From: Tequatrovirus LF73P3
Reading direction: 5' to 3' (one strand)
Length of the DNA: 64,000 bases
Sequence record: OZ035756.1
Part shown: positions 26,437 to 57,578 of the stretch, piece after piece
How the letters are laid out: each line of letters opens with the position of its first letter
Numbering within the stretch: the stretch's first letter is position 1
Made by a program: the position numbers and the translations under genes
Notes under the pieces: model-generated
Database searches by the model: none
What the model was told of the DNA's origin: nothing
The model's input: only the letters and a program-made list of their open reading frames with translations

Positions 26437-27423
26437 TTATTTCAGAAGAGTAACCTCAGCGATTTCTTGCCAACCGTTTTTGTCGGTCATAATAAAGTCA
26501 GCAAGATAAAGAGCAGTACGCAGTGAAACATTGCGTAAACGATTAACATTAACTTTCATCCATGATAATGCTTTATAAGTTTCTTCATCAGAAAGACCGC
26601 GCTTTTGCATCATGTCAGTTGAAAGAATAACATCTTCAACCCTGACCATAATTTCTTCATTAGTGTGAACACCCAAATCCAAATAAACCGAGCGGGACAC
26701 TAATGCTTGTAAATGTGGAGCAAGTTTAGTACCACGGTCTAATTCGCGGTCAATGTCAACGTTTGTGATAAAAACAATCGTTCCTTTAAATTCAAACTCA
26801 CGGTCAATGCCTTTTTCTTCTAAGTAAGAAGATGCAGTGCTCCAGCAGACTTTACGGGTCTCTCCAGTGTCCAGAGCAGCTTTTAGAAGATTAAGAATGT
26901 CCATATCAGAGAAAACATCCACATCATCAATCAAAAGGACAGAATTCTCTTCACGATTATTCCAAAGCTGCTCATAAAGACCAATACCAGAGATTTTACC
27001 ATTAATGCTTTTATATTCAATGTATCCGTTATCATTTGCTTTATTTAAAGCTTTATCTAAAGAATACGTTTTACCAATACCTGCTGCGCCAGAGATAATT
27101 AATGAACGAATATTTCCATTAATAATACCATTCGTCATCATTCCCATAACATTAAATCTTTTATTAATGCGGGTTTTCATATCTTCATATGATTCTTTAA
27201 CTTCTTCAACTTTTACACCATCATATGAAATATCTGATTTGTAAACCCAAACACCGCGACGTTTACCGTCAATTTCAACAAAAACTTTACCATCTCCTTG
27301 TGCATCTACCGGAGCATTATCTGGGAACCATTCGCCTAAGAGCTCAAAAGTTCCAGAGATTTCTTTACCGAAGTAGATACCCTTATTGATAGTTACAGTT
27401 TTCATTTTATTCTCCAATTTCAC
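26437..27423 (-). CDS. P-loop NTPase (328 aa)
   Basis: Walker A GAAGIGKT and Walker B-like VLLIDDVD. Confidence 0.55.
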   Translation of the reverse strand: MKLENKMKTVTINKGIYFGKEISGTFELLGEWFPDNAPVDAQGDGKVFVEIDGKRRGVWVYKSDISYDGVKVEEVKESYEDMKTRINKRFNVMGMMTNGIINGNIRSLIISGAAGIGKTYSLDKALNKANDNGYIEYKSINGKISGIGLYEQLWNNREENSVLLIDDVDVFSDMDILNLLKAALDTGETRKVCWSTASSYLEEKGIDREFEFKGTIVFITNVDIDRELDRGTKLAPHLQALVSRSVYLDLGVHTNEEIMVRVEDVILSTDMMQKRGLSDEETYKALSWMKVNVNRLRNVSLRTALYLADFIMTDKNGWQEIAEVTLLK

Positions 27424-27440
27424 ATTTGTTTTGATAGGGT

Positions 27441-27473
27441 AATAGTATCACACTACTACCCTACTGTAAACAA
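27441..27473 (-). promoter_or_regulatory. T4-type early promoter
   Basis: Minus strand GTTTAC-18 nt-TACTAT. Confidence 0.55.
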
Positions 27474-27474
27474 T

Positions 27475-27738
27475 TTATTTTAATGTTTGCCAAATTTTTA
27501 CTGCTTCGCGACGAGATACTTCTACAGCTCCAAGTTCTACGGCTTTTTGGCGTCGGCGAGCATGTAAGTCATAATGTTTAATGCGTTTATCTTGAAACCA
27601 AGAACGTTTCATTCCTATTGCTTCTGCCATTTTATGAAGCTCTTCAATATCTCCATCAGTGAACATATGACAATTTTTAGTTGGATGACCGCGAAGTTTC
27701 CATCCATGATTCATTAAAACATCTACGTAAACTGTCAT
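27475..27738 (-). CDS. Small conserved phage protein (87 aa), DUF4031-like by recollection
   Basis: MTVYVDVLMNHGW...HMFTD...ELH.MA.AIG pattern; family assignment from memory only. Confidence 0.35.
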   Translation of the reverse strand: MTVYVDVLMNHGWKLRGHPTKNCHMFTDGDIEELHKMAEAIGMKRSWFQDKRIKHYDLHARRRQKAVELGAVEVSRREAVKIWQTLK

Positions 27739-27929
27739 TGATTCTGCTCCAAATATGTTTCTATAATTTTCTGAGCGAGATAAACTGCGTTATCTTCAGT
27801 TGCATCTTCTAAGAAATTTTCAAAATAAGCTGAAATTTCTTCTGTGTCAATCAACTTTTTTACTTCAATTAACGTAGTTTTCATTTTATTCCCCCAAATC
27901 CGTATCAGTTGATAGTTGTATAGTACCAC
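27735..27929 (-). CDS. Hypothetical acidic protein (64 aa)
   Basis: ORF immediately downstream of early promoter at ~27930. Confidence 0.4.
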   Translation of the reverse strand: MVLYNYQLIRIWGNKMKTTLIEVKKLIDTEEISAYFENFLEDATEDNAVYLAQKIIETYLEQNQ

Positions 27930-27970: not shown

Positions 27971-27996
27971 AAATAAAAAAGGGGACCTTAGAGGTC
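27971..27996 (-). terminator. Intrinsic terminator
   Basis: Minus strand GGGGACC-UCUAA-GGUCCCC followed by UUUUUU. Confidence 0.7.
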
Positions 27997-28009
27997 CCCT
28001 TGCGTTAGT

Positions 28010-28495
28010 TTATACCATTTCTATTATGTGCATATTCTTTTTGCTGTCAAAATATATGCTTTTAACTGTTAACTCAGAATTAATTGGCAGTAAAAACTCT
28101 CTTTCATAATCTACCATACAAAGATTATCATAAAGTTTGTTAAGCTTATCATCATCAGTTTGACCAGATTCTTCAATTGCGATTAAATTTTCTAAAATGT
28201 CAATCATGGCAGTCGAATAGTCAAAAACGTTTGCATTTTTTAACACTACTAAAACATTAGTCATATAGCGTTCTGCAGCAAACGTTTCAGCTATATGAGA
28301 CTCACTGCTAAAGGAAGTTATTCTTTTAAATTTGATTCTCCTATTAACTTCAAACTTATAAGATAGCACTTCCTCTATTGTAAGTCCTCTAAAAAGTATG
28401 TCTTTAATCTCAAGTTTGTCTTTAATGTAATCATTAACACGCTTATGATTAAAATCATTAATTTTGTTGCCAAGGCATTGCATTAAAATATGCAT
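28010..28495 (-). CDS. Candidate mini ADP-ribosyltransferase (R-S-E type), 161 aa
   Basis: Motif triad in ART-like spacing: LFRG (R36), YSTA (S94-T95), EREFLLP (E131/E133); single-gene unit between promoter and terminator. Confidence 0.4.
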   Translation of the reverse strand: MHILMQCLGNKINDFNHKRVNDYIKDKLEIKDILFRGLTIEEVLSYKFEVNRRIKFKRITSFSSESHIAETFAAERYMTNVLVVLKNANVFDYSTAMIDILENLIAIEESGQTDDDKLNKLYDNLCMVDYEREFLLPINSELTVKSIYFDSKKNMHIIEMV

Positions 28496-28539
28496 TGTAT
28501 TTTCCTCAATTTTTAAAGAACAATTAACTAACTTACAAA

Positions 28540-28574
28540 TATATTATAATATGCTTTGCGGTAGAAGTAAACAA
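28540..28574 (-). promoter_or_regulatory. T4-type early promoter driving the ART-like gene
   Basis: Minus strand GTTTAC-17 nt-TTATAAT. Confidence 0.6.
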
Positions 28575-28600: not shown

Positions 28601-28620
28601 AGGGAGCCCGAAGGCTCCCT
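28601..28620 (-). terminator. Intrinsic terminator
   Basis: Minus strand AGGGAGCC-UUCG-GGCUCCCU followed by UUUUAUUUC. Confidence 0.7.
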
Positions 28621-28621
28621 A

Positions 28622-29635
28622 TCATTTATAATAACTTCGATGGTTTTCAAGATAAACCCTCTCAAGGAAGTCATCCCAGAAACCCATGTCTACTTTTTGC
28701 TGCATACCGTTCTTAGAAGCTTCAATGGATGCTGCTTCTACTTGATCGACCACATCTTCCAAAAACTCTTGAACAGTTTTAAATGGATGTTTACCCAACT
28801 TCACGTCGAGAATAAATGGAGCGTCTTGAAGTGGATAGACTAAGTCACCAGTTTTGTAAATTTCCAATAGTTGGAGTCCACCACGGCAAGCATGACTCAG
28901 AGCTTTCCAGTCAATGCCCTCATTCGCTTCAGCCTTACGAGCACGTTCGCCGTATTCAGCATCAAGTTTATTCAAAGATTGCTTAAGCTCGATAAGAGAA
29001 AGCGTTGTCTGATATTTACGACCCAACACAGTGTAGAACGTTTGTGGACCTGTTTTCTCATGATTATGGAACACCCATTCACAGAATTCGTTCTCTGGAA
29101 GACGATGCTTAATATCTTCAATCTTAGTTCGACGTTGCTTAATGGAACCGTCTTCTTGATAATCAACCCACTGATCAGGGATTTGATTAACTACTTTCAA
29201 TACATCACGTAATGCGGCCAAACGAGAACCCTTAACACCGTATTTAGAAGCTTGCTTGCGAACATATCCTAAGTAGGATTTCATGTTAGTCGTATAAAAA
29301 CGAGAACGATTGTCTTGAATAAACTTCCATACATCAGGCAAATCAGATTTAACTACCAGTTCAGGTGGAGTGTGGAGCATATCCAATGCTACAGTTTCAC
29401 CATCTGCTGCTAATTTAAAGAAATACTTAAGACTGTATAGTTCATGGTCAATATCATCTTTAGTGTTTTTAGATGATGTGTTGTTAGTGTTTTTACTCAT
29501 ATGCTCTTTAACATTTCCGATAAGAATATCACGAGCAGGAGGAACAAAGATTTCTTTAAAATCTACATCAGATTCTGGAGTAGAAGTTCCATAAAGATGA
29601 CTACCAAAATAGCTTTTCATTACTGTTTTCATCAT
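28622..29635 (-). CDS. Minimal nucleotidyltransferase (MNT/ANT-type) with C-terminal helical domain, 337 aa
   Basis: N-terminal signature GSHLYGTSTPESDVDF (GS-x3-G-x5-SD-V-D) plus downstream acidic LDMLH. Confidence 0.6.
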   Translation of the reverse strand: MMKTVMKSYFGSHLYGTSTPESDVDFKEIFVPPARDILIGNVKEHMSKNTNNTSSKNTKDDIDHELYSLKYFFKLAADGETVALDMLHTPPELVVKSDLPDVWKFIQDNRSRFYTTNMKSYLGYVRKQASKYGVKGSRLAALRDVLKVVNQIPDQWVDYQEDGSIKQRRTKIEDIKHRLPENEFCEWVFHNHEKTGPQTFYTVLGRKYQTTLSLIELKQSLNKLDAEYGERARKAEANEGIDWKALSHACRGGLQLLEIYKTGDLVYPLQDAPFILDVKLGKHPFKTVQEFLEDVVDQVEAASIEASKNGMQQKVDMGFWDDFLERVYLENHRSYYK

Positions 29636-30117
29636 TCAGCCTTATATTCAATAACAGGACATACTTTAGCTTTACGCGCTTTTAAAAATTCGACGATAAT
29701 AGATTTCTTGGGTTGAATAGGCTCAAGTCCATTTTTGATTCGTTCTTCGTTTTGTACAATGAGCTCAATTTCTTTATTGAGCTTTCGGTCGTTATATTTG
29801 TCTAACAACCAGGAAGGACCAATTACCGCCCCGACAGCAATAAGAACCATGACCGATAATGCTAAAATGCCTATACCAATTGAAGCTGGAATTAATGTCC
29901 ATAGACTACTAAAGACAAAGAATTTAATTAAAATTTCTTGGCCAATTATTGCAGCACCTGTTAAAGTTGCAAATCCAACAATTGAAACCGCTAATACCGG
30001 GAGAAACGTTTTCCAAAAATAAGCACATAACGTTTTTGGACGATTCCATGTGCTGTTAAATGCCGAGTAAATTTTAAAGTGCCAAGAGTTTTCATTAATA
30101 ATCATAATTATAATCAT
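29632..30117 (-). CDS. Membrane protein (161 aa), translationally coupled to the nucleotidyltransferase
   Basis: Several hydrophobic helices (FLPVLAVSIVGFATLTGAAIIG; IGILALSVMVLIAVGAVIG); stop overlaps NTase start. Confidence 0.5.
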   Translation of the reverse strand: MIIIMIINENSWHFKIYSAFNSTWNRPKTLCAYFWKTFLPVLAVSIVGFATLTGAAIIGQEILIKFFVFSSLWTLIPASIGIGILALSVMVLIAVGAVIGPSWLLDKYNDRKLNKEIELIVQNEERIKNGLEPIQPKKSIIVEFLKARKAKVCPVIEYKAE

Positions 30118-30635
30118 CCTTTCATTGAAGGTGTAACAGTTGTTAAATACTTAATCATAGCTTCAGCTTCTGATTTTGATAATGAAATTTCTCCATTGTT
30201 TTGACGAATAGAAATAAAATCCGGATGACGGTCACCACCAGCTTTTAAAACACACATATAAGTATCAGTTTCATCTTCAATATCTGAAATGATTGAAGCA
30301 GTTCCACATGAATGTGGTTTTTGATAAATCAATACAGCTTTTCTTCCACCGTTTGACTGCTCATAAACTTTTAACACATCAAACAAATCACTTCTTTTAT
30401 CAATAGCTAAGATGTTGTTTTCATCTTCAATGTTAAATCCTTCGGATACTTCATAAAGTGTCACCCATAAATCACCAATATCAATAACAGCGTTCACTTT
30501 TCCATGACTTTCAAGAGCATTACAAATTTTCTTAATTTCATCATAACTCATTTTAATAATATCATCTCCTTGAATAAAGAAGATGTCATTTTTAAATTCA
30601 ACGCGAATTAAACCACTTTCACTTGAAATAAACAT
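30114..30635 (-). CDS. Hypothetical protein (173 aa), weak paralog of upstream gene
   Basis: C-terminus SKSEAEAMIKYLTTVTPSM resembles TKDEAIALKTYLDSVIPTM of the 30642..31199 product. Confidence 0.45.
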   Translation of the reverse strand: MFISSESGLIRVEFKNDIFFIQGDDIIKMSYDEIKKICNALESHGKVNAVIDIGDLWVTLYEVSEGFNIEDENNILAIDKRSDLFDVLKVYEQSNGGRKAVLIYQKPHSCGTASIISDIEDETDTYMCVLKAGGDRHPDFISIRQNNGEISLSKSEAEAMIKYLTTVTPSMKG

Positions 30636-30641
30636 ATTTCC

Positions 30642-31199
30642 TCACTTTGAAATCATAGTTGGAATGACAGAATCAAGATAAGTCTTTAGCGCAATAGCTT
30701 CGTCTTTGGTAAATGTGACAATATATGAACGAAAATCATCAATTTGACGAATAGTTAAGACATCTCCATCTTCATAACATTTTGATACATTTAAAACAGT
30801 TTCATCATTTTGATTGCAAGCGTTAGTAATAATAGCATTGCAATTTTTGAGCCATTTTAAACTATGTTTTCTTTCATTAGAATAATAAAAATATTTAATC
30901 TTATCTATAAAACTATCCCAATGGATAACTGATAAACACATTGACTCACTTTTAATATTAAATCCTGGGCATGAAGAATAAAAATGAATTTTGTGCTCAT
31001 CATTGATGCTTACTATTTTATCAGTATAAGGATATTCTATTTGGATTAAATGAATGATTTCACTAGGCGTAAAATATAGCATATCGTCTTCTTGCGTCAA
31101 ACGATACATGTTATTTACTTTTTCTATAGCCAATTCACCAAAAAGCGGACTAACTTCTAATACTAATCGTTTCATATTGATTCTCTTCGACTCACTCAC
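30642..31199 (-). CDS. Hypothetical protein (185 aa); apparent GTG start
   Basis: First gene of a four-gene early operon; AGGAG RBS upstream of GTG. Confidence 0.45.
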   Translation of the reverse strand: MSESKRINMKRLVLEVSPLFGELAIEKVNNMYRLTQEDDMLYFTPSEIIHLIQIEYPYTDKIVSINDEHKIHFYSSCPGFNIKSESMCLSVIHWDSFIDKIKYFYYSNERKHSLKWLKNCNAIITNACNQNDETVLNVSKCYEDGDVLTIRQIDDFRSYIVTFTKDEAIALKTYLDSVIPTMISK

Positions 31200-31333
31200 A
31201 ATTACATACTCCTTTGAATAATATCAATAATGTTGTTCACCAGATTATAAGTAAACATTGGATAATTATATTGAATCATCACATACACAACAAACAAAAC
31301 TTTCATTCTCTTCTCCTTGGCAGTTGACAAGAT

Positions 31334-31366
31334 TACTATATCATAACCTTGCCAACTTGTAAACCA
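31334..31366 (-). promoter_or_regulatory. T4-type early promoter (operon 31199..28622)
   Basis: Minus strand GTTTAC-18 nt-TATAGT. Confidence 0.5.
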
Positions 31367-31529
31367 TTAAATGACGTTTTCAATAAAATTCTGAAGCTTT
31401 GTGTGAGCATCAACCATGATTTTCATTTCTTCCTTTGCGAAAGCTGTACCTCTTTCTCGAGCAGAATACTCATAGTCAGAAACTGCATTAGCATATTCTT
31501 CAATTAGCTTCATTAAAAACATCTGCTTT

Positions 31530-31724
31530 TCAGTTTTCATTATTCCACCTAATCATTTCAAGATATTGAACTAACTTAGCTTTGGATTTATCCAAATCCT
31601 TTTTAGCTGCTTCTATACCATCGTATGAGTATCCTTCACAATGCTCAACTGCTAATTGATATGAATCTATTTCAACATCACGTGCTAATTTAATAATTTT
31701 TTCAAACTGTTCACATGTTAGCAT
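31530..31724 (-). CDS. Hypothetical protein (64 aa)
   Basis: Small acidic ORF. Confidence 0.35.
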   Translation of the reverse strand: MLTCEQFEKIIKLARDVEIDSYQLAVEHCEGYSYDGIEAAKKDLDKSKAKLVQYLEMIRWNNEN

Positions 31725-31726
31725 AC

Positions 31727-31966
31727 TTAAACTCTCGTATTATGATCGATAATTTCATCAAGAAACATATCTAAAGCTTCTACAGCATTATCAACTTTAG
31801 CTTCAAATTTTTCAATACCTTTATTTGCAATGCCTGCCGAAAACCAAGCAAAGTCACTAAGTTCCTCATCTGCTTTGCGAATTAAAGCTACCAATTCTTT
31901 AATTTTATCTGCTTGTTCAATTCTAGTCATTATTCCACCACATATGAAAGAGAGAATATTGCACAC
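31727..31966 (-). CDS. Hypothetical protein (79 aa)
   Basis: Small ORF. Confidence 0.35.
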
Positions 31967-41659: not shown

Positions 41660-42030
41660 TTAATTTTCCTACAATCACTCACAAACTCTTCCATTGATTC
41701 TTTTTCAATATAAGACATATAGCTATTATATTCCTTTAATTGTATTTTGTAATTCTTTTTTCTTTGCCAATTTATTTTAAAATTATCATAATGAAAATAT
41801 AACATGGTACCAAAGAATGAAAATAATGAAATTGCTATAGTATAATGAAGTTCACTCCAAACTTCTATTATATCTACTATACCGCTGACGTTACTGCGGA
41901 TGTTTAAAATAAAACAGTCAATTAACAATCCAATAAAACTACCCGCAAGAGCTGCAGCCAATGCCACAGCAAAAATTAAAAATGACTCAGAAAAAGAATA
42001 TTTGACTTTATTTAGTCTTGGCTTTTGCAT
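41656..42030 (-). CDS. Membrane protein (124 aa), paralog array
   Basis: TM helices; C-terminal tail SYIEKESMEEFVSDCRKIK. Confidence 0.45.
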   Translation of the reverse strand: MQKPRLNKVKYSFSESFLIFAVALAAALAGSFIGLLIDCFILNIRSNVSGIVDIIEVWSELHYTIAISLFSFFGTMLYFHYDNFKINWQRKKNYKIQLKEYNSYMSYIEKESMEEFVSDCRKIK

Positions 42031-42425
42031 CGTGATTCCTTAACAAATTTCATAATTTCATTAAATTCATACTTAGCAAGTTTAATCTGGTGTTCCTTTT
42101 TAATCTTTTTACACTGGGCTTTCCAATCACGTACGCGTTTACGATAATGTCTTCCTTGATACCAGTATCCTACCCAATTTACGGGTACTAATAAAAGTGG
42201 AACTACCAATGGAAGAATTAGCATTAACACAAGTATTTCGCCAGAATCAATATCAGTCATAACATCTAAAACACCTCCAATAATCAATAGAATTACAAAT
42301 GATATAAGTATAACAGGACCTATTAATACATCGGTAGAAATTATCTGGTGCTTTGATTCATACTTCACAGGTTTACTTGGAAGGTATAGTGATGGCTTTG
42401 ACATATTCTCTACATTCCTTAACAA
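42012..42425 (-). CDS. Membrane protein (137 aa), paralog array
   Basis: TM helices; C-terminal tail AKYEFNEIMKFVKESRCK. Confidence 0.45.
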   Translation of the reverse strand: MLRNVENMSKPSLYLPSKPVKYESKHQIISTDVLIGPVILISFVILLIIGGVLDVMTDIDSGEILVLMLILPLVVPLLLVPVNWVGYWYQGRHYRKRVRDWKAQCKKIKKEHQIKLAKYEFNEIMKFVKESRCKSQD

Positions 42426-55595: not shown

Positions 55596-57578
55596 ATGGC
55601 AAATACCCCTGTAAATTATCAATTAACACGAACAGCAAATGCTATTCCCGAGATATTCGTCGGGGGTACATTTGCTGAAATAAAACAAAACCTCATTGAA
55701 TGGCTTAATGGCCAAAATGAATTTTTGGATTATGATTTTGAAGGCTCAAGATTAAACGTTCTGTGTGACCTTTTGGCTTATAATACATTGTACATTCAGC
55801 AGTTTGGTAATGCTGCCTTGTATGAAAGCTTTATGCGTACTGCTAATTTACGTAGTTCAGTAGTTCAAGCTGCACAAGATAATGGATATTTACCTACTTC
55901 AAAATCAGCTGCTCAAACTGAAATTATGCTAACTTGTACAGACGCATTGAATAGAAATTATATTACTATTCCTCGTGGTACTCGCTTTTTAGCATATGCA
56001 AAAGATACTTCCGTTAATCCTTACAACTTTGTATCTACCGAAGATGTTATTGCTATTCGTGATAAAAATAACCAATATTTTCCGCGTTTAAAATTAGCCC
56101 AGGGGCGTATAGTAAGAACTGAAATCATCTATGATAAATTAACACCTATTATCATTTATGACAAAAATATAGATAGAAATCAAGTTAAACTATACGTTGA
56201 TGGAGCAGAATGGATTAACTGGACAAGAAAGTCAATGGTTCATGCTGGTTCTACATCAACAATTTACTACATGCGTGAAACTATTGATGGAAATACTGAG
56301 TTTTATTTTGGTGAAGGAGAGATTTCTGTTAATGCGGCAGAAGGAGCATTGACCGCTAATTATATTGGAGGTCTTAAACCTACCCAGAACTCTACGATTG
56401 TTATTGAGTACATCAGTACTAACGGTGCAGATGCGAATGGCGCAGTCGGATTTTCATATGCAGATACATTAACAAATATAACTGTCATCAACATTAATGA
56501 AAATCCAAACGATGACCCAGATTTTGTTGGGGCAGATGGCGGCGGTGATCCAGAAGATATTGAACGTATTCGTGAATTGGGTACTATTAAACGCGAGACC
56601 CAGCAACGCTGCGTAACTGCGACGGATTATGATACATTCGTTTCAGAGAGATTTGGTTCTATTATTCAAGCAGTTCAGACTTTCACTGATTCTACTAAAC
56701 CTGGTTATGCATTTATTGCTGCTAAACCTAAATCAGGACTATATTTAACTACTGTACAGCGCGAAGATATTAAAAATTATCTCAAAGACTATAATTTAGC
56801 TCCTATTACGCCATCAATTATTTCTCCTAATTACCTTTTTATTAAGACTAATTTAAAAGTCACATATGCTTTAAATAAGCTGCAAGAATCCGAACAGTGG
56901 CTCGAAGGTCAAATAATTGATAAAATTGATCGTTATTATACTGAAGATGTAGAAATTTTTAACTCGTCTTTCGCTAAATCTAAGATGTTGACATATGTAG
57001 ATGATGCAGATCATTCTATCATTGGCTCATCCGCGACAATTCAAATTGTTCGTGAAGTACAAAACTTCTATAAAACGCCTGAAGCAGGTATTAAATACAA
57101 TAATCAAATAAAAGATCGTTCTATGGAATCTAATACGTTTTCATTTAATTCTGGACGAAAGGTTGTAAATCCTGATACTGGTTTAGAAGAAGATGTGTTA
57201 TATGACGTTCGCATAGTATCAACAGACCGAAATTCTAAAGGAATTGGTAAAGTTATTATTGGTCCATTTGCTTCTGGCGATGTTACAGAAAATAAAAACA
57301 TTCGTCCATATACAGGCAACGATTTTAATAAATTAGCAAATTCTAGTGGACGCGACAAATACTATGTTATCGGTGAAATAAATTATCCAGCTGATGTGAT
57401 TTATTGGAATATCGCTAAAATTAATTTAACATCTGAAAAATTTGAAGTTCAGACTATTGAATTATATTCTGACCCAACCGATGATGTTATCTTTACTCGC
57501 GATGGTTCACTGATTGTATTTGAAAATGACTTACGTCCACAATACTTAACTATCGATTTGGAGCCTATATCACAATGA
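55596..57578 (+). CDS. 6: Baseplate wedge protein gp6
   Basis: 660 aa; size and synteny as T4 gp6. Confidence 0.85.
   Translation: MANTPVNYQLTRTANAIPEIFVGGTFAEIKQNLIEWLNGQNEFLDYDFEGSRLNVLCDLLAYNTLYIQQFGNAALYESFMRTANLRSSVVQAAQDNGYLPTSKSAAQTEIMLTCTDALNRNYITIPRGTRFLAYAKDTSVNPYNFVSTEDVIAIRDKNNQYFPRLKLAQGRIVRTEIIYDKLTPIIIYDKNIDRNQVKLYVDGAEWINWTRKSMVHAGSTSTIYYMRETIDGNTEFYFGEGEISVNAAEGALTANYIGGLKPTQNSTIVIEYISTNGADANGAVGFSYADTLTNITVININENPNDDPDFVGADGGGDPEDIERIRELGTIKRETQQRCVTATDYDTFVSERFGSIIQAVQTFTDSTKPGYAFIAAKPKSGLYLTTVQREDIKNYLKDYNLAPITPSIISPNYLFIKTNLKVTYALNKLQESEQWLEGQIIDKIDRYYTEDVEIFNSSFAKSKMLTYVDDADHSIIGSSATIQIVREVQNFYKTPEAGIKYNNQIKDRSMESNTFSFNSGRKVVNPDTGLEEDVLYDVRIVSTDRNSKGIGKVIIGPFASGDVTENKNIRPYTGNDFNKLANSSGRDKYYVIGEINYPADVIYWNIAKINLTSEKFEVQTIELYSDPTDDVIFTRDGSLIVFENDLRPQYLTIDLEPISQ

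What the first reader, a model, noticed from the sequence alone, without database searches (positions are those of the whole stretch)
28601..31366. Four-gene early operon: two weak paralogs, a membrane protein, and an overlapping minimal nucleotidyltransferase
Behind one early promoter (~31350) and ahead of a strong terminator (~28610) lie four genes: 30642..31199 and 30114..30635 with similar C-terminal tails, a multi-TM protein (29632..30117), and a nucleotidyltransferase (28622..29635) with the classic MNT signature GSHLYGTSTPESDVDF. The membrane protein's stop overlaps the NTase start. An NTase paired with a membrane partner is reminiscent of nucleotide-signal/effector or toxin-antitoxin logic, here on a lytic phage. 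Function is unknown; it could nucleotidylate a host factor or act as a decoy or exclusion module.
Basis: partly seen in the sequence, partly recalled or inferred. Interest (0 to 1): 0.66.

Follow-up and report, generated by a model that had tools for sequence, protein, structure and literature searches.

The report
T-even NrdC.11 RNA-repair nucleotidyltransferase operon
The "mystery" nucleotidyltransferase is phage T4's NrdC.11, from a family whose bacterial members add nucleotides to broken RNA ends; it sits in a gene arrangement common in T4-like phages, and the only new lead is that its small membrane-protein neighbour often lies beside RNA-repair genes in unrelated phages.

Summary
One early-type promoter and one strong terminator bracket a co-directional, tightly packed gene block on the minus strand.

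The window is a Tequatrovirus. The nucleotidyltransferase is T4 NrdC.11 (98% identical). It belongs to Pfam RlaP (PF10127), and a 2025 preprint names NrdC.11 as a member. Two bacterial RlaP enzymes in that preprint add 1-2 nucleotides to RNA 3'-OH ends.

The two "weak paralogs" are T4 mobD.1 and a second member of the same y05I family. The membrane protein and that second paralog occupy exactly the site where T4 carries the homing endonuclease mobD. T6 and many other T-even phages share the window's layout.

There is no support for toxin-antitoxin, CBASS-like or MNT logic. What is new is the membrane protein's family. It is large, seems almost confined to phages and has no Pfam model. It lies beside RlaP in T4-like phages, and beside Rnl1, Rnl2 or other RNA ligases at other loci and in unrelated phages. 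This link is enriched, not universal.

Verdict: a known gene set, with a moderately interesting and testable lead.

The parts
31335..31363 (-). Early-type sigma-70 promoter (GTTTACA, 17 nt with TG, TATAGT)
   Evidence: Promoter scan, 10 of 12 matches plus an extended -10. Sequence read. Nearly identical in T4 upstream of mobD.2.
   Evidence: AAGGAG Shine-Dalgarno sequence and ATG at 31306. Aligns almost base for base with T4 mobD.2. No Pfam hit.
30642..31199 (-). mobD.1 homologue (y05I family; Pfam calls it a putative transcription factor)
   Evidence: 85% identical to T4 mobD.1. Pfam T4_y05I_N E=6e-39 and T4_y05I_C E=1e-20. phrog_1502.
30114..30635 (-). Second y05I-family paralog, absent from this site in T4 but present in T6
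   Evidence: 27% identical to mobD.1. Pfam T4_y05I_N E=3e-33 and T4_y05I_C E=2e-23. 94-100% identical in T6 and other phages.
29632..30117 (-). Small inner-membrane protein of a large family with no Pfam model (phrog_944). It has conserved N-terminal (NSWHxKL...LCxYFW) and C-terminal (KA[RK]KxK[VF]CP) motifs flanking a variable TM hairpin. The probable start is 30105.
   Evidence: Hydropathy. AlphaFold model with pLDDT 84: two long helices, with strand 2-4 and strand 153-155 at the two ends. Family alignments. 6303 clusters at 50% identity with E<=1e-3. No Pfam, PADLOC or NCBIfam hit.
28622..29635 (-). NrdC.11, an RlaP-family Pol-beta-type nucleotidyltransferase. The probable start is 29632.
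   Evidence: 98% identical to T4 NrdC.11. Pfam RlaP PF10127 E=3e-11, 43.8 bits against a cut-off of 23. phrog_388 E=2e-136. G10, S11, D22 and D24 are invariant and D84 is D or E across phage homologues.
28601..28620 (-). Intrinsic terminator (8-bp stem, 6 GC pairs, UUCG loop, T-run)
   Evidence: Terminator scan. Sequence read. A separate early-type promoter (28571-28543) follows directly.

Best explanation
This is the arrangement, shared with T6 and many other T-even phages but not with T4, of a non-essential early accessory operon: early promoter, mobD.2, mobD.1, a mobD.1 paralog, a 2-TM membrane protein, nrdC.11, terminator.

The last gene encodes an RlaP-family nucleotidyltransferase. [quoted passage not shown] One plausible substrate is a tRNA 5' half that has lost its wobble nucleotide to an RloC-type anticodon nuclease. 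The phage's Pnk and RNA ligases, encoded elsewhere in T4-like genomes, could then reseal a functional tRNA.

T4 itself carries the HNH homing endonuclease gene mobD precisely in place of the paralog and membrane genes.

The membrane protein is probably an accessory linked to phage RNA-repair modules. I infer that its conserved N- and C-terminal motifs form a small cytoplasmic domain held at the inner membrane. Its mechanism is unknown.

What is shown: gene identities, family membership, operon signals, the cassette swap, and the neighbourhood pattern. What is inferred: RNA 3'-end extension by NrdC.11 itself, the tRNA-repair role, the membrane topology, and any functional link to the membrane protein or the y05I proteins.
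For: Identity:
- The region matches 680 phage records by megablast, 367 of them over at least 80% of its length, nearly all Tequatrovirus-like.
- NTase 98% identical to T4 NrdC.11. mobD.1 85%.

Family:
- Pfam RlaP above the gathering score.
- Catalytic GS...DxD...D/E conserved down to 30% identity, plus a conserved C-terminal YGxR...GxDxKxxSHxxR motif.

Literature:
- PMC12776372 places T4 NrdC.11 in RlaP cluster 5. It shows that two Pseudomonas RlaPs add 1-2 NMP to RNA 3'-OH ends, prefer Mn2+, do not act on DNA or protein, and partly restore aminoacylation of a tRNA missing one anticodon-loop nucleotide.
- PMC7824862 makes the same prediction for phage RlaPs.
- In Vibrio phage 11895-B1, RlaP lies in a cluster of kinase, CCA-adding tRNA nucleotidyltransferase, a 154-aa ORF, then RlaP.

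Operon signals.

Cassette swap: homology to T4 stops at the NTase start (29636) and resumes at 30617. A 980-bp segment holding the paralog and membrane genes stands where T4 has the 808-bp mobD gene. T6 has the window's order.

Non-essentiality: T4 tolerates loss of nrdC.11-mobD.3 (PMC9825161).

Membrane protein next to RNA-repair genes:
- RlaP within about 1.7 kb downstream (overlapping to three genes away) in all of the roughly 30 T4-like loci of several genera where the gene sits at this site.
- One small gene away from Rnl2 at a uvsW-hoc locus.
- Two small genes from a PF09414 ligase beside gene 32 in Biquartavirus-like phages.
- Directly upstream of Rnl1 and an AAA_33 kinase in Pakpunavirus-like phages.
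- Two genes from a PF09414 ligase on a high-GC contig.
Against: - No experiment exists on T4 NrdC.11 itself. It belongs to a different sequence cluster from the assayed Pseudomonas enzymes.
- Only residues 7-135 align to the Pfam profile.
- The AlphaFold model of the NTase was poor (pLDDT 54.7), so the C-terminal domain could not be compared with PfRlaP. No solved relative was found by sequence.
- No RNA ligase or Pnk-type kinase lies in this 64-kb window.
- The membrane link is not universal. There are no recognisable RNA-repair neighbours in ICP1, an Eneladusvirus, a Ceceduovirus or about a dozen environmental contigs. Their neighbours include RecT, an MBL-fold protein, PolA, ThyX and cell-wall enzymes.
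- T4 keeps NrdC.11 with no family member in the 59 kb I examined, which includes all its RNA-repair loci.
- Distant RlaPs lack the membrane neighbour.
- My rough, post hoc estimate that this adjacency arises by chance is only about 0.003-0.02.
Confidence: 0.6

Rival explanations
1. Synteny only. The NTase is an RlaP RNA-end nucleotidyltransferase, but the membrane protein and the y05I proteins are unrelated early host-takeover or superinfection-exclusion genes. They merely share a plastic, promoter-proximal region with it.
For: - T4 lacks the membrane gene but keeps nrdC.11.
- RlaP in Vibrio phages and KPN8 has no such neighbour.
- Many environmental family members sit beside replication, recombination or cell-wall genes.
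- The central TM part of the gene is hypervariable between otherwise more than 90% identical phages (55% protein identity to T6; blastn homology breaks at 29722-30012). This is typical of surface or conflict genes.
- Overlapping stop and start codons are common throughout T4-like genomes (established knowledge).
Against: - The gene is found at three different loci within T4-like phages, each time within two small genes of a different RNA-repair enzyme: RlaP, Rnl2 or a PF09414 ligase.
- It lies directly upstream of Rnl1 and a kinase in unrelated Pakpunavirus-like phages.
Confidence: 0.3
2. The NTase and membrane protein form a nucleotide-signal/effector pair, a toxin-antitoxin pair, or an exclusion or decoy module (MNT/AbiEii-like or CBASS-like).
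For: - Translationally coupled gene pair.
- Small TM proteins serve as effectors in some signalling defence systems (general knowledge).
- A Pol-beta-type GS...DxD motif is present.
Against: - No PADLOC hit for any of the four proteins.
- Pfam assigns RlaP. NTP_transf_2 is sub-threshold, and there are no SMODS or AbiEii hits.
- No HEPN or AbiEi partner is present.
- The membrane family was almost absent from one genome per 185,579 bacterial and archaeal species. The scan used a single C-terminal motif pattern and found two MAG contigs.
- The pair is separable in both directions.
- The assayed RlaP enzymes extend RNA rather than make cyclic signals.
Confidence: 0.04
3. NrdC.11 uses the RlaP fold for a different job. 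Examples are tailing or marking host or phage RNAs for decay or stability, repairing tRNA 3'-CCA ends after MenT- or colicin-type damage, or modifying a non-RNA target.
For: - It belongs to a separate RlaP sequence cluster (cluster 5, against 1a for the assayed enzymes).
- Only the N-terminal half matches the Pfam profile.
- It is not adjacent to a ligase in T-even genomes.
- The assayed RlaPs label many E. coli RNAs, including rRNA and full-length tRNA.
Against: - The same preprint found no activity on DNA or protein.
- The Vibrio phage homologue sits with a CCA-adding enzyme and a kinase.
- According to PMC7824862, RlaP distribution in jumbo phages mirrors that of RNA ligases.
Confidence: 0.15

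Closest known systems
T4 NrdC.11 (NP_049709) / RlaP family, Pfam PF10127 (RNA ligase-associating Pol-beta nucleotidyltransferases)
   Same: 98% identical to T4 NrdC.11. Scores above the Pfam gathering threshold. Has the GS...DxD...D catalytic signature. Same size, and sits at the same genomic position next to nrdC.10.
   Different: The biochemically and structurally characterised members (PfRlaP, PaRlaP) are bacterial, lie in RtcB/RtcA operons, and belong to a different sequence cluster. Here no ligase is adjacent, and only the N-terminal domain aligns to the profile.
T4 tRNA repair pathway (Pnk/PseT plus Rnl1, countering PrrC)
   Same: It is a phage counter-measure to anticodon nucleases. RlaP is predicted to supply the missing-nucleotide step ahead of ligation.
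   Different: Pnk and Rnl1 have been demonstrated genetically and biochemically. The role of NrdC.11 is predicted only. Those genes are not in this window.
T4 mobD.1 / Pfam T4_y05I_N + T4_y05I_C (y05I-like putative transcription factor)
   Same: Both upstream genes carry both domains. One of them is the mobD.1 orthologue.
   Different: The window, like T6, has two tandem paralogs. Other genera carry only a roughly 70-aa stand-alone y05I_C protein just upstream of the membrane gene. No function has been tested.
T4 mobD free-standing HNH homing endonuclease locus (nrdC.11/mobD.1 insertion site)
   Same: It is the same intergenic position between nrdC.11 and mobD.1.
   Different: The window lacks mobD and has the y05I paralog and the membrane gene instead. 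This is the endonuclease-free allele of the site.
Minimal nucleotidyltransferase toxin-antitoxin systems (MNT/HEPN, AbiEii) and CD-NTase signalling systems
   Same: They share the Pol-beta superfamily catalytic motif and a two-gene coupled layout.
   Different: There are no family-level hits, no HEPN, AbiEi or sensor-effector partner, and the distribution is phage-only. This is not a member.

Membership tests
RlaP (PF10127) | Matches the family profile above the curated threshold | tested here: met
   43.8 bits against a cut-off of 23, E=3.4e-11, residues 7-135. Homologues carry a precomputed PF10127 assignment.
RlaP (PF10127) | Pol-beta catalytic signature: hG[GS], DxD and a third acidic residue, all conserved | tested here: met
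   G10, S11, D22 and D24 are invariant. D84 is D or E in 12 phage homologues down to 30% identity.
RlaP (PF10127) | N-terminal NTase domain plus a C-terminal helical domain, with the terminal helix packing back on the NTase domain (PfRlaP crystal structure) | tested here: inconclusive
   The AlphaFold model was poor (pLDDT 54.7). The C-terminal half is predicted helical, but the N-terminal domain is unmodelled. No solved relative was found by sequence.
RlaP (PF10127) | Gene neighbourhood with RNA ligase or other RNA-repair genes | tested here: not met
   No Rnl1, Rnl2 or Pnk-type kinase in the 64-kb window. T4 encodes them at distant loci. A distant phage homologue does sit with a CCA-adding enzyme and a kinase. 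The feature named the family but is not required by Pfam.
RlaP (PF10127) | Adds 1-2 NMP to RNA 3'-OH ends | not testable with these tools
   Shown only for PfRlaP and PaRlaP (PMC12776372).
MNT / AbiEii type toxin-antitoxin NTases | NTP_transf_2 or AbiEii profile match, with an adjacent HEPN or AbiEi partner | tested here: not met
   NTP_transf_2 scores 14 bits against a cut-off of 21. There is no AbiEii hit. Neighbours are a TM protein and y05I proteins. No PADLOC hits.
CD-NTase / CBASS-like signalling | CD-NTase profile match, with an effector carrying a nucleotide-sensing domain | tested here: not met
   No Pfam or PADLOC hit for the NTase or the membrane protein.
T4 y05I family (PF24449 + PF24448) | Both domains above threshold | tested here: met
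   Both upstream proteins: N domain 115 and 133 bits, C domain 83 and 74 bits.
mobD homing-endonuclease-occupied locus | HNH endonuclease gene between nrdC.11 and mobD.1 | tested here: not met
   A T4 mobD query hits only T4. The 980-bp segment has no homology to T4.

The most novel reading that the evidence does not exclude
The 2-TM protein represents a large phage protein family that has no Pfam model and no description in the papers I could search. On this reading the family is a previously unrecognised accessory of phage RNA-repair (anti-ribotoxin) modules. Its conserved cytoplasmic N- and C-terminal mini-domain carries invariant residues W8, C27, Y29, K147 and C149, with H9 nearly invariant, and might bind a metal. 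It would tether, regulate or sense for RlaP, Rnl or Pnk enzymes at the inner membrane. In T4-like phages it would form a conserved module: y05I_C protein, membrane protein, RlaP.
Probability: 0.3. Interest if true: 0.6.

Novelty: already known. Interest (0 to 1): 0.35.

Why it matters
As posed, the finding is explained. The NTase is T4 NrdC.11, an RlaP-family enzyme already predicted to work in tRNA repair, and the gene order is shared with T6 and many other sequenced T-even phages.

Its remaining value is practical.
- The window and T6 show the endonuclease-free state of the mobD site.
- A very large uncharacterised phage membrane-protein family turns up beside four different classes of RNA-repair enzyme (RlaP, Rnl1 with a kinase, Rnl2, and other PF09414 ligases).

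If that link is functional, it adds an unexpected membrane component to the classic phage tRNA-repair pathway. It also offers a genetic handle in T6-like phages, as opposed to T4, for testing what RlaP does during infection.

Tried and rejected
- AlphaFold of the NTase from a shallow alignment (homologues at least 78% identical) gave pLDDT 54.7. It was unusable, so I made no fold comparison with PfRlaP.
- PDB sequence and profile searches for the NTase and the y05I proteins found nothing credible.
- Foldseek of the good membrane-protein model returned no hit in the PDB. In BFVD it returned only uncharacterised phage proteins.
- PADLOC and NCBIfam gave no hits for any gene.
- The bacterial and archaeal species-genome scan found only two MAG contigs. 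The scan used one C-terminal motif pattern, so it is not exhaustive.
- Alignment A2 was too divergent to use for locus scanning.
- Burroughs & Aravind 2016 (PMC5062991), the paper that defined RlaP, is not held. I could not check whether it mentions a TM partner.
- Literature searches for mobD.1, y05I, and a membrane protein together with RNA repair found nothing relevant.
- ICP1 gp170-172, next to its family member, look kinase- or HAD-like by eye but have no Pfam support. I did not count them.
- A second weak "membrane family" hit in the window (42012-42425, E=7e-4) lacks both terminal motifs. I rejected it as compositional.
- The downstream 161-aa ORF shows no BLASTP similarity to T4 Alt despite its PHROG label.
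Full report
**What is there**

The window is 35% GC. The 2.8-kb region matches 680 phage records by megablast, 367 of them over at least 80% of its length. Almost all are Tequatrovirus-like.

The promoter at 31363-31335 reads GTTTACA, 17 nt with an extended-10 TG, then TATAGT. It is almost base-for-base identical to the sequence upstream of mobD.2 in T4.

The terminator at 28620-28601 is an 8-bp, 6-GC stem with a UUCG loop and a T-run. A separate early-type promoter for the next gene follows it directly. No late (TATAAATA) or MotA-box motifs occur inside the block.

Each gene has a Shine-Dalgarno sequence. The junctions are tight or overlapping: ATGA between the paralog and the membrane gene, ATGATG between the membrane gene and the NTase.

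A 34-aa mobD.2 homologue lies at 31202-31306.

**Identities**

- The NTase is 98% identical to T4 NrdC.11.
- The first "paralog" is 85% identical to T4 mobD.1.
- The second paralog is 27% identical to the first, E=1e-8. Both carry Pfam T4_y05I_N and T4_y05I_C, which Pfam describes as a "y05I-like putative transcription factor".
- The membrane protein has no Pfam, PADLOC or NCBIfam match. It belongs to phrog_944.

In T4 the order is nrdC.11, mobD (an HNH homing endonuclease), mobD.1, mobD.2. Homology between the window and T4 stops exactly at the NTase start (29636) and resumes at 30617. A 980-bp segment holding the paralog and the membrane gene therefore stands in for the 808-bp mobD gene.

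T6 has exactly the window's order, as do the retrieved Tequatrovirus-like loci. The window shows the endonuclease-free allele of a known homing-endonuclease site (PMC2988022). In Tequatrovirus-like phages lacking mobD, the four genes do travel together. T4 is an exception.

**The nucleotidyltransferase**

Pfam places it in RlaP (PF10127) at 43.8 bits against a gathering score of 23. NTP_transf_2, the MNT-type family, scores 14 against 21. PHROGs gives phrog_388, "nucleotidyltransferase", at E=2e-136.

Across twelve phage homologues down to 30% identity, G10, S11, D22 and D24 are invariant. The third acidic residue (D84) is D or E. A C-terminal motif, YGxR...GxDxKxxSHxxR, is also conserved.

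A December 2025 preprint (PMC12776372) names T4 NrdC.11 as an RlaP member in its cluster 5. It shows that two Pseudomonas RlaPs:
- add one or two NMPs to RNA 3'-OH ends, but not to DNA or protein;
- prefer Mn2+ and prefer cleaved-tRNA mimics;
- partly restore aminoacylation of a tRNA lacking one anticodon-loop nucleotide.

Its authors propose that RlaP counters nucleotide-excising ribotoxins such as RloC. PMC7824862 makes the same prediction for phage RlaPs.

In Vibrio phage 11895-B1 the homologue sits in a cluster of kinase, CCA-adding tRNA nucleotidyltransferase, a 154-aa ORF, then RlaP. T4 tolerates deletion of nrdC.11-mobD.3 (PMC9825161).

RNA 3'-end extension in tRNA repair is therefore the best-supported function. 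It remains an inference for NrdC.11 itself. My AlphaFold model of the NTase was too poor to compare folds (pLDDT 54.7). No solved relative appears by sequence.

Nothing supports toxin-antitoxin, CBASS-like or MNT logic:
- None of the four proteins hits a PADLOC model.
- There is no HEPN, AbiEi or sensor partner.
- The membrane family is nearly absent from one genome per 185,579 bacterial and archaeal species. The scan used one motif pattern and found two MAG contigs.

The pair is also separable. T4 keeps NrdC.11 with no family member in 59 kb that includes all its RNA-repair loci. RlaPs of Vibrio phages and KPN8 have no such neighbour.

**The membrane protein: the one new lead**

The family is large. 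A profile search found 6303 clusters (at 50% identity) with E<=1e-3, and 2617 with E<=1e-10.

Members share:
- an N-terminal motif, NSWHxKL...LCxYFW;
- a C-terminal motif, KA[RK]KxK[VF]CP;
- invariant W8, C27, Y29, K147 and C149, nearly invariant H9, and P150, which is replaced in one Acinetobacter phage member;
- a variable hydrophobic core between the two motifs.

A confident AlphaFold model (pLDDT 84) shows two long helices forming a hairpin. A short strand near each terminus (residues 2-4 and 153-155) suggests that the two ends pair. Net positive charge at both ends suggests they face the cytoplasm; this is my inference. Fold searches return only uncharacterised phage proteins.

Where the family member sits, by lineage:

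| Lineage | Neighbour |
|---|---|
| About 30 T4-like loci of several genera (Tequatrovirus, Jiaodavirus, Kanagawavirus, Moonvirus, Acinetobacter phages), some redundant | RlaP within about 1.7 kb downstream, from overlapping to three genes away |
| Another T4-like lineage, uvsW-hoc locus | One small gene from Rnl2 |
| Biquartavirus-like phages, beside gene 32 | Two small genes from a PF09414 ligase |
| Pakpunavirus-like phages | Directly upstream of an Rnl1-type ligase and an AAA_33 kinase, with a Metallophos gene upstream |
| High-GC contig | Two genes from a PF09414 ligase |

In the T4-like loci, a y05I_C-domain protein lies immediately upstream wherever I checked. It is full-length in some genera and a roughly 70-aa stand-alone protein in others.

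Against the link: ICP1, an Eneladusvirus, a Ceceduovirus and about a dozen environmental contigs show no recognisable RNA-repair neighbour. Their neighbours include RecT, an MBL-fold protein, PolA, ThyX and cell-wall enzymes.

Assume a 5-10% chance of such proximity per independent lineage, based on four RNA-repair genes in 169 kb of T4. Five hits in 15-18 lineages then give roughly p = 0.003-0.02. This is a post hoc estimate, suggestive but not decisive.

The gene's central TM part is hypervariable between phages whose flanks are more than 90% identical. That pattern fits a conflict-related role, but it fits the synteny-only rival equally well.

**Verdict**

The finding describes real, correctly located features. 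The central gene is T4 nrdC.11, of the RlaP family, and the layout is shared with T6 and many other sequenced T-even phages. It is already known and not a new kind of system.

The residual novelty is the recurrent but non-universal association of this membrane-protein family with RNA-repair enzymes. I found no description of it in the accessible literature. I could not read the 2016 paper that defined RlaP.

Noticed in passing
window 27984-28566 (ORF 28010-28495, minus strand): A 161-aa ORF with its own early-type promoter (28571-28543) and terminator (28001-27979). It is inserted between nrdC.11 and nrdC.10 relative to T4 and T6. It hits phrog_832, 'RNA polymerase ADP-ribosylase' (E=6e-24). 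By eye it shows an R-S-ExE pattern (R36, S61-x-S63, E130-x-E132). It has no Pfam, PADLOC or NCBIfam hit and no BLASTP similarity to T4 Alt. It may be a small Mod-like ADP-ribosyltransferase cassette.
   Followed up: partly
window 27418-27875: A second insertion relative to T4 and T6. It holds an 87-aa DUF4031 protein (27475-27738, E=2e-21) and a 64-aa ORF (27735-27929).
   Followed up: partly
window 29722-30012: The central transmembrane part of the membrane gene is too divergent from T6 for blastn to align, while both flanks are at least 90% identical. Whole-protein identity to T6 is 55%, against 98% for the NTase and 94% for the paralog. Only 27 phage records carry an allele at least 80% identical to the window's.
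   Followed up: partly
window 29637-30616 vs T4 56450-57257 (L001 11451-12258): A precise cassette swap. The y05I paralog and the membrane gene (980 bp) stand where T4 has the HNH homing endonuclease mobD (808 bp). The boundaries fall at the NTase start codon and at the mobD.1 stop. MobD's cleavage target is listed as unknown and may lie in this segment.
   Followed up: partly
window 31367-31966: Three tandem small paralogs (57, 64 and 79 aa), all matching DUF7438. They lie directly upstream of the operon's promoter, at the positions of T4 mobD.2a, mobD.3 and mobD.4.
   Followed up: no
L071 (Vibrio phage 11895-B1) 305-4421: A compact putative tRNA-repair cluster: an AAA_33-type kinase, a CCA-adding tRNA nucleotidyltransferase annotated as two joined pieces with a second CDS nested inside (possibly an intron), a 154-aa ORF, and RlaP.
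   Followed up: no
L025 4510-5390, L038 5001-5884 (Acinetobacter T4-like phages); P0064 (phage T2): Acinetobacter phages carry two tandem copies of the membrane gene upstream of RlaP. The T2 copy (135 aa) has a different N-terminus lacking the conserved NSWH...LCxYFW motif and may be degenerate.
   Followed up: no
L010 1443-5267 (Pseudomonas phage JG005) and L040: In Pakpunavirus-like phages the membrane gene is embedded in a putative heal-and-seal cluster. The order in JG005 is: phosphohydrolase (record annotation), a 143-aa ORF, a Metallophos phosphoesterase, a small ORF, an HTH_37 protein, the membrane protein, an Rnl1-type ligase and an AAA_33 kinase. NAD-salvage genes (prs, nicotinamide phosphoribosyltransferase) follow.
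   Followed up: partly
window 42012-42425 (minus strand): A 137-aa two-TM ORF hits the membrane-family profile weakly (E=7e-4) but lacks both terminal motifs. The match is probably compositional.
   Followed up: partly
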